A DNA stretch of 64,000 nucleotides from positions 1-64,000 of IMG/VR virus record IMGVR_UViG_3300002054_000008; one strand, given 5' to 3'. Source of the DNA: a virus (taxonomy: Duplodnaviria; Caudoviricetes). The number at the start of each line of letters is the position of its first letter. Within the stretch, counting starts at the first letter, position 1. Positions 1 to 56,046 of the stretch are shown here, piece by piece. A model generated the notes under the pieces. That model was not told the origin of the DNA and made no database searches. It saw only the letters and a program-made list of their open reading frames with translations. A program made the position numbers and the translations under genes.

Positions 1-48
1 CAGACTTTCAATCTGGAGAAACGGGTTCGATGCCCGTATGCAGTACCA
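1..48 (+). tRNA. tRNA-Glu(TTC), 5'-truncated by window edge
   Basis: Anticodon arm CAGA-CTTTCAA-TCTG, T-arm ACGGG-TTCGATG-CCCGT, encoded CCA ending at 48. Confidence 0.85.
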
Positions 49-775: not shown

Positions 776-858
776 GCAGACGTAATCGAGTCGGTCTACG
801 AAGCCGTTAATCGTAATTGGAATTGAAAATACAGGTTCGAGTCCTGTCGTCTGCGCCA
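776..858 (+). tRNA. Atypical tRNA-Arg(ACG)-like RNA lacking a D-arm, with a 23-nt variable region
   Basis: Acceptor GCAGACG/CGTCTGC, 8-nt linker, CGGT-CTACGAA-GCCG, T-arm ACAGG-TTCGAGT-CCTGT, GCCA. Confidence 0.8.
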
Positions 859-875
859 GAGAAAAGAGAAGAAAA

Positions 876-2084
876 ATGACTGAACGTAATTATAGATATT
901 CACAAGGCGTTAAAATGTGGGACAAGTATGTGCCATTCGCTGAAAACACAATAGAGCAGCTACATAAGGTAGCACAGATGCCTTTCATTCATAGCCACGT
1001 AGCAGCAATGCCTGATGCCCACCTTGGTATCGGAGCCACTGTTGGTTCTGTGATTGCTACAAAAGGTGCTGTAATCCCTGCGGCTGTGGGTGTTGACCTT
1101 GGCTGCGGAATGATGGCCTTGAGAACCACGTTACGTGCTGACCAACTGCCTGACAATTTAAGAGAGTTACGCTTACGTTTGCAACGCGCAATCCCACTTG
1201 GCTTCCAGTCAGTGCAAGGGCGCTACGCTAAAGGTCGTTGGAAGGTAGCACCACAGTCAACTGTGACACGCTTCCGTCCTCTGCAAGACCGTTTAGACTT
1301 GCTTATTCAGAAGCATCCAATCCTTGAGCGCAACCATGCTCATAATCAGATGGGAACTTTGGGTGGTGGCAATCACTTCATCGAAATCTGTCTGGACGAA
1401 GACGATATGGTGTGGGTAATGCTTCACTCTGGTTCTCGCGGGATTGGTAACATGATTGGCCGCTACTTCATTGAGAAAGCCAAAGAGGATATGCGTCGGC
1501 ACTTCATCAATCTACCAGACAAGGACTTGTCCTATCTGGTTGAGGGAACAGAGAACTTTAACGACTACGTTGAAGCTGTTGAGTGGGCGCAAGAGTATGC
1601 TGCCGAGAACCGAAATGCTATGATGGATATTGTCCTACGCACTATGCGTGAGAAGCTACCTGCTTTTCAGATTAGCAAAGAGGCTGTTAACTGTCACCAT
1701 AACTATATCTCACGCGAGAACCACTTCGGGGCTAACGTAATTGTTACCCGTAAAGGTGCTATTCGTGCGAGGGAAGGTGAGTTAGGTATTATCCCTAGCT
1801 CAATGGCAACAGGGTCAGCTATCGTAAGAGGATTAGGTAATGCTGATAGTTTCTGTTCATGCTCGCATGGCTCTGGTCGTGTTATGTCTCGAACAGAAGC
1901 CAAGAAGATGATTACCTTAGAAGACCACAAGGCTGCTGTTGCGGGAGTCGAGTGCAGAACAGACAAGGACGTGATTGATGAATCACCTGCGGCCTACAAA
2001 GACTTCGACGCTGTGATGAAATCGCAGGAAGACTTAGTGGTAGTGGAACATCGCATCAAGCAGGTTCTAAATATCAAAGGATAA
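876..2084 (+). CDS. rtcB: RtcB family RNA 2',3'-cyclic phosphate/5'-OH ligase
   Basis: MPDAHLG, VGVDLGCG, GTLGGGNHFIE, LHSGSRG, NCHHNY, RKGA, SHGSGR, DESPAAYK motifs. Confidence 0.95.
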   Translation: MTERNYRYSQGVKMWDKYVPFAENTIEQLHKVAQMPFIHSHVAAMPDAHLGIGATVGSVIATKGAVIPAAVGVDLGCGMMALRTTLRADQLPDNLRELRLRLQRAIPLGFQSVQGRYAKGRWKVAPQSTVTRFRPLQDRLDLLIQKHPILERNHAHNQMGTLGGGNHFIEICLDEDDMVWVMLHSGSRGIGNMIGRYFIEKAKEDMRRHFINLPDKDLSYLVEGTENFNDYVEAVEWAQEYAAENRNAMMDIVLRTMREKLPAFQISKEAVNCHHNYISRENHFGANVIVTRKGAIRAREGELGIIPSSMATGSAIVRGLGNADSFCSCSHGSGRVMSRTEAKKMITLEDHKAAVAGVECRTDKDVIDESPAAYKDFDAVMKSQEDLVVVEHRIKQVLNIKG

Positions 2085-55206: not shown

Positions 55207-55593
55207 AAACTATCACAAAAATTAAAATGCGTCGGTTCATCAACCGCCGTTCAAATGGAGTAGTTGAGCAGCTAGAAAAGCTAGTAGCCAAACTACAAAC
55301 TTGGATTGCCAAGCTAGACGCAGAGCAAGACGCCGCTAACCAAGCTATGAAGCAAGAAATTGCAGCTATCAAGAAATTGCAGCTATCAAGAAATTGCAGC
55401 TATCAAGAATGGTGCAGAAACAGAAGTTGAACGCCTAGAATATTTGATTGCAGAAGCTAAGGCAAATGCTATCGACGCAGAAGCTGCGGTTACTGATGAA
55501 TACACAGCAATCATCAATGAAGCCAAAGGTGAAGCTGAACGTGCTCGTCAAGTTGAGCATAACATGAAAACACTCGTTGGAAGTCCTACTTAG
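55203..55593 (+). pseudogene. Coiled-coil gene frameshifted by a 17-bp tandem repeat expansion
   Basis: ORFs 55203-55430 and 55360-55593 join in frame with 1 (or 4) repeat units. Confidence 0.75.
55353..55409. repeat. Tandem repeat (CAAGAAATTGCAGCTAT) x3.3
   Basis: Three exact 17-bp copies plus CAAGAA. Confidence 0.95.
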
Positions 55594-55606
55594 GACTTCT
55601 GACTAT

Positions 55607-55689
55607 GCGGGTCTAGTCGTGGATGCCTTCTAAGCAGCTAAGCGTAATCGGAACTGAAAATGGGGGTTCGAGTCCCTTGGCCCGTGCCA
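55607..55689 (+). tRNA. Atypical tRNA-Arg(TCT)-like RNA lacking a D-arm, with a 23-nt variable region
   Basis: GCGGGTC/GGCCCGT acceptor, 8-nt linker, GATGC-CTTCTAA-GCAGC, GGGGG-TTCGAGT-CCCTT, GCCA; same architecture as 776-858. Confidence 0.78.
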
Positions 55690-55716: not shown

Positions 55717-56046
55717 ATGGAATACTCTGATACTGAAAAAGCTCAAATTGAAGCTTTAGGTGCTAGTGCATCTAACAAACAGAAAACTGCTCCTCGACGT
55801 AAACCTCGTGCAGTGTATATTGTACAAGAAGGCGAGGGTGGCCCAATCTATCGGATTGAAACGCCAGAGTCCTATGCTGGACGAAAGCAAATTTCTTCGA
55901 GCAACGTAACGTCTCTTAAAAAACTCGCACGAATTAAACGTGTGCGTGATAGAGGTTATGTGAAACGTCTAGCAACTAATGCAGATGTTCGTCGCTATGG
56001 CCCTGCAATCGTAATGCCAGCAGGTGACGAGAAAGCCGCAGCATGA
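55717..56046 (+). CDS. Basic hypothetical protein
   Basis: TAAGGA RBS before MEYSDTE. Confidence 0.6.
   Translation: MEYSDTEKAQIEALGASASNKQKTAPRRKPRAVYIVQEGEGGPIYRIETPESYAGRKQISSSNVTSLKKLARIKRVRDRGYVKRLATNADVRRYGPAIVMPAGDEKAAA

What the first reader, a model, noticed from the sequence alone, without database searches (positions are those of the whole stretch)
55607..55689. Second rearranged Arg tRNA-like gene (TCT) 55 kb away: an isoacceptor pair
Seen: same architecture as 776-858 but with anticodon TCT and different stems, so the fold is conserved across two Arg isoacceptors rather than being one decayed copy. The other complete tRNAs in the window keep a D-arm-length segment, and no canonical tRNA-Arg is visible here. 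It starts 9 nt after an AGTCCTACTTAGGACT palindrome. Inference: ACG (as ICG) and UCU together would read most Arg codons, which points to selection specific to Arg decoding.
Basis: partly seen in the sequence, partly recalled or inferred. Interest (0 to 1): 0.8.

Follow-up and report, generated by a model that had tools for sequence, protein, structure and literature searches.

The report
Rearranged-core arginine tRNAs of phages
The flagged 83-base gene is one of two arginine tRNA genes in this phage that replace the textbook cloverleaf core with a rearranged one, a design shared by more than a hundred other phage sequences and missed by standard gene finders.

Summary
Window 55607-55689 (anticodon TCT) and 776-858 (ACG) are 83-nt genes with a normal acceptor stem, anticodon arm, T arm and encoded CCA, but no D hairpin. 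ARAGORN misses both. The Rfam tRNA model scores 21.8 and 35.3 bits against a cut-off of 29.

They belong to a large family. A motif without the anticodon, plus a covariance model, gave 131 distinct members. In all of them a 4-5 bp helix joins the 5 nt after U8-A9 to two segments 3' of the anticodon arm. An 8-nt bulge, UAANNGGA, splits those two segments. The helix covaries strongly. The canonical D-arm reading fails, with 39.9% of cells paired. The bulge behaves like a D loop: it has a 15:48-like covarying pair, and the base after GG tracks the anticodon.

Anticodons are Arg in 111 of 131, Ile in 17 and other in 3, so the fold is not Arg-only. This 99%-complete phage has no other Arg tRNA. I read both genes as working tRNA-Arg. 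No RNA or charging data exist. My searches found no prior description.

The parts
55607..55613 (+). Acceptor stem, 5' strand (GCGGGTC); pairs with 55679-55685
   Evidence: All 7 pairs are standard, 2 of them G.U. In the family this helix is 98.4% paired, and all 7 pairs show changes on both sides.
55614..55615 (+). U8-A9-like dinucleotide TA
   Evidence: Invariant in all 98 aligned members, and not part of the search motif.
55616..55620 (+). Helix H, 5' strand (GTCGT). 55616-55617 pair with 55654-55653. 55618-55620 pair with 55644-55642.
   Evidence: Counts per pair, by A1 column:
- 10:50: GC 60, AU 30, UA 2, CG 1, GU 1, other 3, gap 1.
- 11:49: CG 56, UA 18, AU 9, UG 4, GC 1, other 10.
- 12:40: CG 98.
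- 13:39: GC 74, AU 17, CG 3, UA 3, GU 1, other 0.
- 14:38: paired in 62 of 98.
RNAalifold predicts 10:50, 11:49, 12:40 and 13:39 on its own.
55622..55638 (+). Anticodon arm GATGC / CTTCTAA / GCAGC; anticodon TCT at 55629-55631 (Arg, AGA/AGG)
   Evidence: The sequence shows 4 of 5 stem pairs, with A.G at the second pair. In the family, position 33 is U in 130 of 131 and position 37 is a purine in 131 of 131. The stem is 91.0% paired with all 5 pairs covarying.
55639..55641 (+). 3-nt joiner TAA between the anticodon stem and helix H. With G55621 it forms a 1 x 3 internal loop.
   Evidence: Alignment A1 columns 34-37. RNAalifold pairs columns 15:34 in part of the family.
55642..55644 (+). Helix H, 3' strand, first part (GCG)
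   Evidence: See helix H, 5' strand.
55645..55652 (+). D-loop-like 8-nt bulge TAATCGGA, with GG at 55650-55651 and an A20-like base at 55652
   Evidence: TAA and GG were fixed by the search motif. The base after GG was left free, and it is A in 109 of 111 Arg-type members; Ile types mostly have T. The third bulge base covaries with the base 5' of the T stem: AU 124, GC 6, other 1.
55653..55654 (+). Helix H, 3' strand, second part (AC)
   Evidence: Pairs with 55617-55616.
55655..55661 (+). A-rich joiner TGAAAAT taking the place of the variable loop; T55661 is the 48-like base
   Evidence: TGAAA was fixed by the motif. The last base covaries with the third bulge base.
55662..55678 (+). T arm GGGGG / TTCGAGT / CCCTT
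   Evidence: Canonical GGTTCGAGTCC. In the family it is 98.8% paired.
55679..55689 (+). Acceptor stem 3' strand GGCCCGT, discriminator G (55686), encoded CCA (55687-55689)
   Evidence: Sequence. CCA is encoded in 70 of 131 members.
776..858 (+). Second member, anticodon ACG at 798-800. Segments: acceptor 776-782 / 848-854; TA 783-784; helix H 785-789 with 823-822 and 813-811; anticodon arm 791-807; bulge TAATTGGA 814-821; joiner 824-830; T arm 831-847; G855; CCA 856-858.
   Evidence: Sequence. The covariance model scores it at 90.0 bits and Rfam tRNA at 35.3 bits.
55580..55599 (+). Perfect 9+9 palindrome GAAGTCCTA..TAGGACTTC, ending 7 nt upstream of the gene. It overlaps the stop codon of the upstream ORF. 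Its link to the tRNA is not shown.
   Evidence: The scan did not call it a terminator-like site.

Best explanation
Both genes encode working elongator tRNA-Arg molecules: UCU at 55607-55689 and ACG, presumably read as ICG, at 776-858. They are built on a non-cloverleaf core.

Shown:
- The acceptor stem, T arm and anticodon arm are canonical.
- The D hairpin is absent.
- The five bases after U8-A9 pair with two segments that lie 3' of the anticodon arm, giving 3 + 2 base pairs (helix H). The anticodon arm therefore sits at the end of helix H in one long arm.
- The two 3' segments are separated by an 8-nt bulge, UAANNGGA.
- A 7-nt joiner, UGAAAAU, leads from helix H to the T stem.

Inferred:
- Acceptor and T arm stack as usual, and helix H stacks on the anticodon stem, giving an L shape around a three-way junction.
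- The bulge plays the part of the D loop. Its third base pairs with the base before the T stem, like the 15:48 Levitt pair. Its GG docks on the T loop.
- The A after GG serves as the A20 determinant for host ArgRS, together with C35 and G36/U36.
- The tRNAs supply AGA/AGG and CGU/CGC/CGA decoding for a phage that carries tRNAs for most amino acids but no other Arg tRNA.

Why the core is rearranged is not known. My leading guess, held weakly, is escape from host factors that recognise the canonical tRNA core.
For: Structure:
- On a MAFFT alignment of 98 distinct members, 94.9% of cells pair, against 61.0% in shuffles and 38.5-45.9% with slid partners.
- The helix H pairs show 1-5 standard pair types each. 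Pair 13:39 has no unpaired cell in 98 sequences.
- RNAalifold predicts four of the five helix H pairs (10:50, 11:49, 12:40, 13:39) independently.
- The 19 highest mutual-information column pairs of the 131-sequence alignment are all proposed base pairs.

D-loop role of the bulge:
- The 15:48-like pair reads AU 124, GC 6, other 1. No shuffle of 500 reached 6 double changes.

Identity:
- Anticodon position 35 against the base after GG reads C/A 109, A/T 10, A/A 3, G/A 1, G/T 1.
- Passages of PMC9976931 state that A20 and C35 are the main Arg determinants in E. coli, and that D-loop positions G16, D20 and D21 matter for Ile.
- All 17 Ile-type members have discriminator A.

Decoding features:
- U33 is present in 130 of 131, a purine at 37 in 131 of 131, and an encoded CCA in 70 of 131.
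- Anticodons fall in Arg boxes in 111 of 131 although the anticodon was not part of the search motif.

Need:
- This contig is rated 99% complete. It holds 17 ARAGORN tRNAs for 16 amino acids (Leu twice) plus a partial tRNA at the contig start. It has no canonical Arg tRNA and exactly two family members.
- The pair would read 85-96% of Arg codons.
- In Pseudomonas phage vB_PaeM_Ty (50,051 bp) the family member is the only RF00005 match in the record.

Plausibility:
- Passages of PMC11551756 report that E. coli EF-Tu and ribosome accept a D-armless tRNA without adaptation.
Against: - There are no expression, processing, charging or decoding data. No RNA run holds the locus.
- Single-sequence folding does not recover the fold. 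The z-scores are 0.08 for 55607 and -1.64 for 776.
- The 55607 copy has an A.G mismatch in its anticodon stem and falls below the Rfam tRNA cut-off.
- 37 of 98 other loci carry a separate canonical tRNA-Arg nearby, 11 with the same anticodon. Plain decoding supply therefore does not explain why the fold is kept.
- 31 of 111 Arg-type members have discriminator U and 1 has C, outside the A/G73 rule quoted.
- The 14:38 pair forms in only 62 of 98 members.
- The 15:48-like covariation rests on 6 sequences.
- The three-dimensional arrangement is reasoning, not a model.
- The family was collected with a motif taken from Arg-type members, so the Arg share is biased upward.
Confidence: 0.72

Rival explanations
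1. The RNAs are tRNA mimics that are made but not used in translation. They could act as decoys or sponges for host tRNA-directed nucleases or other tRNA-binding factors, or as substrates or regulators tied to the RNA-repair enzymes encoded beside some copies.
For: - Many phages with a family member also hold a canonical tRNA-Arg: 37 of 98 loci, 11 with the same anticodon.
- RtcB starts 18 nt after the 776 copy.
- An Rnl-type RNA ligase lies about 300 nt upstream of the copy in Pseudomonas phage Boevelstad, which sits 50 kb from that phage's tRNA cluster.
- Phage tRNAs that counter tRNA-cleaving defences are documented. I saw only the search listings and abstract starts of PMC10264068, PMC11464382 and PMC11555353.
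Against: - A decoy for an anticodon nuclease would not need the acceptor stem, the encoded CCA, the discriminator or the base after GG to track the anticodon's amino acid. All of these are conserved.
- In this phage, and in vB_PaeM_Ty, no other Arg tRNA exists.
- RtcB lies within the fetched flank of only 3 of 115 loci.
Confidence: 0.15
2. The genes encode precursors that are cut and re-ligated, for example by the adjacent RtcB, into an ordinary cloverleaf tRNA.
For: RtcB (Pfam E 2.1e-122) lies immediately downstream of the 776 copy. From general knowledge, RtcB-type ligases join tRNA halves in archaeal and eukaryal splicing.
Against: - By inspection of the segment order, no single deletion or excision restores the order D stem, D loop, D stem, anticodon arm, variable loop.
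- The helix that would be destroyed covaries as a selected structure.
- RtcB is absent from the fetched flanks of 112 of 115 loci.
- vB_PaeM_Ty has an HNH endonuclease gene upstream of its copy rather than a ligase.
Confidence: 0.03
3. They are ordinary tRNAs that were misparsed. The stretch read as the anticodon arm is really the D arm, as in Infernal's alignment of 776-855, and the true anticodon lies further 3'.
For: The Rfam alignment of 776-855 places ATCG/CGAA as a D stem with AGTCGGTCTA as the D loop, and scores 35.3 bits.
Against: - Across 98 members that D stem is paired in only 39.9% of cells, which is background level.
- For 55607 Infernal itself takes the anticodon-arm reading.
- The alternative leaves no conserved 7-nt anticodon loop.
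Confidence: 0.02
4. They are decaying tRNA pseudogenes or chance tRNA-like sequence.
For: ARAGORN does not call them, and the 55607 copy is below the Rfam cut-off. Of the 60 matching phage records listed, out of 291 found, 59 carry no feature under the match and 1 has no annotation at all.
Against: There are 131 distinct sequences from IMG/VR contigs, MAGs and cultured phages of Vibrio, Pseudomonas and Maribacter. They share constant segment lengths (96 of 131 are exactly 80 nt) and show compensatory changes in every helix.
Confidence: 0.01

Closest known systems
Canonical bacterial and phage tRNA-Arg (class I cloverleaf; Rfam RF00005)
   Same: It has a 7-bp acceptor stem, a 5-bp T stem with a GTTCGA-type loop, and a 5-bp anticodon stem with a 7-nt loop. 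The loops CUACGAA and CUUCUAA have U33 and A37. It also has a discriminator plus CCA, U8-A9, a GG motif, an A after GG and an R:Y 15:48-like pair.
   Different: There is no D hairpin. The 3' strand of the D-stem-like helix lies after the anticodon arm and is split by the D-loop-like bulge. The anticodon arm is nested inside that helix, so the junction is three-way rather than four-way. A 7-nt A-rich joiner takes the place of position 26 plus the variable loop.
D-armless mitochondrial tRNAs such as mt tRNA-Ser(AGY/UCU) (review PMC7609411, passages seen)
   Same: They lack a D hairpin, have an extended anticodon-side arm and meet at a three-way junction.
   Different: Going by the passages seen, the mitochondrial forms replace the D arm with a short connector. 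From my own knowledge, they also lack the GG-to-T-loop contact. The phage family keeps a D-loop-like bulge with GG, a canonical T loop and normal length (80 nt), and occurs in phages of bacteria rather than organelles.
Non-canonical cloverleaves of bacteria and phages: tRNA-Sec, allo-tRNA, and the (8/4) tRNA-Ser and tRNA-His types (PMC5389517, passages seen)
   Same: These are naturally occurring structural variants found by metagenome mining, some of them in phage tRNA clusters.
   Different: Those variants change stem lengths (8/4 or 9/3 acceptor/T, long D stem) but keep the four-arm order. Here the order of the elements itself differs.
Engineered D-armless 'mini HisT' used by evolved E. coli (PMC11551756, passages seen)
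   Same: It shows that bacterial EF-Tu, ribosome and a synthetase can use a tRNA without a D arm.
   Different: It is artificial and lacks D-loop elements. That paper states that no natural tRNA with a fold diverging from the cloverleaf was known to be used in bacterial translation.

Membership tests
tRNA (Rfam RF00005 / cloverleaf) | Score at or above the Rfam gathering cut-off of 29 bits | tested here: inconclusive
   776-855 scores 35.3 bits and passes. 55607-55686 scores 21.8 bits and fails.
tRNA (Rfam RF00005 / cloverleaf) | 7-bp acceptor stem, 5-bp T stem with T-loop consensus, and 5-bp anticodon stem with a 7-nt loop, U33 and R37 | tested here: met
   The 55607 copy has one A.G mismatch in its anticodon stem.
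tRNA (Rfam RF00005 / cloverleaf) | D hairpin (positions 10-13 paired with 22-25, enclosing the D loop) between the acceptor stem and the anticodon arm | tested here: not met
   Only 8 nt separate the acceptor stem from the anticodon arm. The one canonical-style D stem on offer pairs in 39.9% of cells. ARAGORN misses both genes.
Bacterial tRNA-Arg identity set (A20, C35, G/U36, A/G73; PMC9976931) | C35 with G36 or U36 | tested here: met
   The anticodons are TCT and ACG.
Bacterial tRNA-Arg identity set (A20, C35, G/U36, A/G73; PMC9976931) | A20 in the D-loop variable pocket | tested here: inconclusive
   An A follows GG in both copies and in 109 of 111 Arg-type members, and it tracks the anticodon. 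That it occupies the A20 position in space is inferred.
Bacterial tRNA-Arg identity set (A20, C35, G/U36, A/G73; PMC9976931) | Discriminator A or G | tested here: met
   G in both window copies. Across the family the Arg types have G 44, A 35, U 31 and C 1.
Bacterial tRNA-Arg identity set (A20, C35, G/U36, A/G73; PMC9976931) | Arginylation by ArgRS | not testable with these tools
   This needs an in vitro or in vivo charging assay.
Class II tRNA (long variable arm) | A self-contained hairpin between the anticodon arm and the T arm, plus a normal D arm | tested here: not met
   The 23-nt segment pairs with the 5' linker, not with itself. There is no D arm.
D-armless mitochondrial-type tRNA | D arm replaced by a short connector that lacks D-loop elements | tested here: not met
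   An 8-nt bulge with conserved GG and a 15:48-like pair is present.
Intron-containing, split or permuted tRNA gene | Removing or rejoining a segment yields a cloverleaf | tested here: not met
   By inspection of the segment order, no single excision restores the canonical order. No bulge-helix-bulge search was run.

The most novel reading that the evidence does not exclude
This is a third structural class of translationally active tRNA, neither class I nor class II. It has a three-way-junction core, is used on bacterial ribosomes, and was fixed in phages because it keeps synthetase identity (position 20 for Arg and Ile) while hiding the canonical D-arm and core from host tRNA-directed defence nucleases or decay.
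Probability: 0.25. Interest if true: 0.92.

Novelty: new variant of a known kind. Interest (0 to 1): 0.85.

Why it matters
[quoted passage not shown] If these RNAs are charged and decode, that statement no longer holds for the phage-bacteria world. They would form a natural, widespread and sequence-diverse alternative tRNA core.

This would bear on several questions:
- how ArgRS, IleRS, EF-Tu, RNase P, the CCA-adding enzyme and the ribosome tolerate a changed core;
- phage annotation, because the gene went unannotated in the listed records of 291 matching GenBank phage genomes and ARAGORN called only 15 of 132 family hits;
- estimates of phage tRNA repertoires and codon compensation, because phages scored as 'lacking tRNA-Arg' may not lack it;
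- the design of orthogonal tRNA scaffolds.

Cultured hosts exist (Vibrio crassostreae, Pseudomonas, Maribacter), so the idea can be tested directly.

Tried and rejected
Single-sequence folding did not recover the fold and gave unremarkable z-scores. I do not use it either way.

Canonical D-arm reading from Infernal's alignment of 776: rejected at 39.9% paired.

Expression: the look-up of sequencing runs listed no RNA holder, only 6 DNA-type rows from two studies.

RtcB linkage: tblastn of the window's RtcB against 115 loci hit only L102, L061 and L023. I kept this as a side note, not as part of the mechanism.

Cellular use: the genome scan gave 11 hits in 185,579 species genomes. For the Brucella (Ochrobactrum) haematophila copy, only 1 of 8 flank ORFs had a PHROG match, to an unknown-function family (phrog_5982, E 1.1e-06). 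Pfam found catalase and a PAS-HWE kinase. I can therefore call it neither prophage nor core gene. That genome has canonical Arg ACG, CCG, CCT and TCT tRNAs among the 55 RF00005 matches, so its rearranged copy is an extra. RF00005 did not list that copy among the 55.

Possible pairs U8:G52 and A9:U51 suggested by RNAalifold are invariant and cannot be tested by covariation.

Literature: six searches and passages of PMC7609411, PMC5389517, PMC6409571, PMC11551756 and the tRNAscan-SE 2.0 preprint gave no description of this fold. The library lacks most subscription journals, and supplements were not opened, so a prior report cannot be excluded.

No structure prediction or complex job was attempted, because the tools take proteins only.

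Full report
WHAT IS AT THE SITE. Window 55607-55689 (+) is an 83-nt intergenic sequence between two same-strand ORFs. The upstream ORF stops at 55591-55593, and a downstream ATG lies at 55717. It reads as follows:
- acceptor 5' strand GCGGGTC
- TA
- GTCGT, then G
- anticodon arm GATGC/CTTCTAA/GCAGC
- TAA, then GCG
- TAATCGGA
- AC
- TGAAAAT
- T arm GGGGG/TTCGAGT/CCCTT
- acceptor 3' strand GGCCCGT
- G, then CCA

Window 776-858 has the same segment lengths with the loop CTACGAA. ARAGORN finds nine tRNAs in the window but neither of these. Rfam's tRNA model scores 776-855 at 35.3 bits and 55607-55686 at 21.8 bits, against a cut-off of 29. It overlaps the upstream stop codon and was not called a terminator-like site.

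A FAMILY, NOT A ONE-OFF. A blastn search found the 83-nt element, at about 75% identity, in 283 Vibrio phage records. In phage D419 the element is unannotated and ARAGORN does not call it.

I then scanned collections with a motif that covers only the 3' segment and the T arm, with the anticodon left out:
- IMG/VR gave 103 stretches.
- One genome from each of 185,579 prokaryote species gave 11 stretches.
- Together these gave 116 hits and 98 distinct genes.

A covariance model built from them separates the family from ordinary tRNAs. Family members score 41.5-94.8 bits, and the window copies score 90.0 and 83.5. Ordinary tRNAs in the same loci scored at most about 38 bits. The model also found 36 further members in the flanks. 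That gives 134 hits, 131 of them distinct, at E <= 1e-6 in 99 sources.

Members also occur in cultured phages: Pseudomonas phage vB_PaeM_Ty (94.5 bits), Pseudomonas phage Boevelstad (81.1 bits) and Maribacter phage Panino (82.3 bits). None is annotated as a tRNA there.

Of 291 phage records that match the 776 copy, 60 were listed. Of those, 59 have no feature under the match and 1 has no annotation at all. ARAGORN calls overlap only 15 of 132 family hits.

THE FOLD. On the MAFFT alignment (98 sequences, 82 columns) I tested a structure in which columns 10-14 pair with columns 50, 49, 40, 39 and 38.
- Overall, 94.9% of cells pair. Shuffles give 61.0% and slid partners give 38.5-45.9%.
- Pair 10:50 reads GC 60, AU 30, UA 2, CG 1, GU 1, other 3, gap 1.
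- Pair 11:49 reads CG 56, UA 18, AU 9, UG 4, GC 1, other 10.
- Pair 12:40 is CG in all 98. G40 was fixed by the motif; C12 was not.
- Pair 13:39 reads GC 74, AU 17, CG 3, UA 3, GU 1, with none unpaired.
- Pair 14:38 forms in 62 of 98.

RNAalifold predicts the first four pairs without being told. In the model-based alignment, the 19 column pairs with the highest mutual information are all proposed base pairs. The rival reading, in which the apparent anticodon arm is really a D arm (Infernal's alignment of 776), pairs in only 39.9% of cells.

The core is therefore a helix whose 5' strand sits where the D stem starts. Its 3' strand lies after the anticodon arm and is interrupted by an 8-nt bulge, UAANNGGA. 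The anticodon arm is nested inside this helix. Topologically this is a three-way junction.

THE BULGE BEHAVES AS A D LOOP. The third bulge base and the base just 5' of the T stem read A:U in 124 sequences, G:C in 6 and other in 1. None of 500 shuffles reached six double changes. This is the pattern of the R15:Y48 Levitt pair. It rests on six sequences, which come from Ile(TAT)-type members and one Arg(TCG) member.

The base after GG was free in the search motif. It is A in 109 of 111 Arg-type members, and in the other 2 the alignment has a gap there. It is mostly U in Ile-type members. Set against anticodon position 35, the counts are C/A 109, A/U 10, A/A 3, G/A 1 and G/U 1.

Passages of the identity review PMC9976931 say that A20 in the D loop is the main determinant for E. 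coli ArgRS, together with C35. They also say that D-loop positions G16, D20 and D21 matter for isoleucylation. All 17 Ile-type members have discriminator A. I infer that the bulge presents position 20 to the synthetase. This is not shown.

ANTICODONS. The 131 distinct members divide as follows:
- Arg, 111 in total: TCT 68, TCG 19, ACG 18, CCT 5, GCG 1.
- Ile, 17 in total: GAT 9, TAT 8.
- Other, 3 in total: TGT 2, CTT 1.

One of the TGT members has C at position 33. U33 is present in 130 of 131 and a purine at 37 in 131 of 131. The Arg share is inflated because the seed motif came from Arg-type genes. Twenty-three of 99 sources carry two to four members with different anticodons, as this window does.

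ROLE IN THIS PHAGE. The contig is 80,567 bp and rated 99% complete. ARAGORN finds 17 tRNAs: Gly, Asp, Trp, Asn, Pro, Gln, His, Lys, Cys, Ala, Met, Ile, Thr, two Leu, Val and Phe. There is also a partial tRNA at the contig start. There is no Arg tRNA. RF00005 adds only the two family members.

In 81 ORFs the Arg codons are CGT 31%, CGC 12%, CGA 10%, CGG 4%, AGA 32% and AGG 12%. ICG plus UCU would therefore read 85-96% of them.

In vB_PaeM_Ty the family member is the only RF00005 match in 50,051 bp.

Against a simple 'missing tRNA' story, 37 of 98 other loci have a canonical tRNA-Arg nearby, and 11 have one with the same anticodon.

WHAT I CONCLUDE. The structure claim is strong. Function as a charged, decoding tRNA-Arg is the best reading (about 0.7), but it is inferred from comparative data only. 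No RNA run holds the locus.

Why the core is rearranged remains open. Escape from tRNA-directed host defences is attractive. RtcB starts 18 nt after the 776 copy, and an Rnl-type ligase sits beside the Boevelstad copy. However, RtcB is in the fetched flank of only 3 of 115 loci, so I hold this idea at about 0.25.

NOVELTY. Six full-text searches and passages of five papers gave no description of this fold. PMC11551756 (2024) states that all known bacterial tRNAs are canonical. The library omits most subscription journals, and supplements were closed, so earlier mention elsewhere is possible. I class the finding as a new structural variant of a known kind of molecule.

Noticed in passing
window 876-2084 (+): An RtcB RNA ligase gene (Pfam PF01139, E 2.1e-122) starts 18 nt after the CCA of the 776-858 tRNA. 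It is followed by ribonucleotide reductase large and small subunits and an ATP-dependent DNA ligase. RtcB lies within the fetched flank of only 3 of 115 related loci.
   Followed up: partly
L117:1058-2188 and L117:2497-2576 (Pseudomonas phage Boevelstad, PQ464592.1): The family member lies about 300 nt downstream of an Rnl-type RNA ligase (PF09414, PF21189) and 50 kb from that phage's main tRNA cluster. This is a second, unrelated RNA ligase next to a member of the family.
   Followed up: partly
L116:2483-2562 (Pseudomonas phage vB_PaeM_Ty, OQ555403.1 4932-5011): This copy has a high family score (94.5 bits, just below the 94.8-bit maximum) and anticodon TCT. It is the only RF00005 match in the whole 50,051-bp genome. 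It is unannotated and overlaps the end of an HNH endonuclease CDS. This makes it a simple system for experiments.
   Followed up: partly
L030, L031, L057, L091, L088, L048, L037, L020, L033, L039, L060, L067, L041 (coordinates): An Ile-type subfamily of the same fold has anticodons GAT and TAT, mostly GGU instead of GGA in the bulge, discriminator A in 17 of 17, and often a 1-nt rather than a 2-nt link to the acceptor stem.
   Followed up: partly
window 1-45 and contig 79615-80343: The contig begins inside a tRNA (Rfam 29.5 bits, 5'-truncated) and ends just after a cluster of eight tRNAs. One tRNA cluster appears to be split by the ends of the record.
   Followed up: no
many loci, e.g. L001:3832-3909, L029, L035, L075, L100, L108: In the same phage tRNA clusters ARAGORN reports tRNAs with 2- or 4-base anticodons ('???'), and also Stop(tta), Pyl(cta) and SeC(tca) calls. 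These may be other unusual or suppressor tRNAs.
   Followed up: no
L107:6519-6598 (Brucella/Ochrobactrum haematophila contig); G001:C55:158976-159055: A family member (TCT) sits in a bacterial chromosome near catalase and a PAS-HWE kinase. The flank has only one weak PHROG match, to an unknown-function family. The genome also has a full canonical Arg tRNA set. Separately, an 80-nt tRNA-like sequence on another contig is called '???(cc)' by ARAGORN.
   Followed up: partly
L118:2659-5069 (Maribacter phage Panino): A very large ORF annotated as tRNA methyltransferase lies directly beside the tRNA cluster that holds the family member.
   Followed up: no
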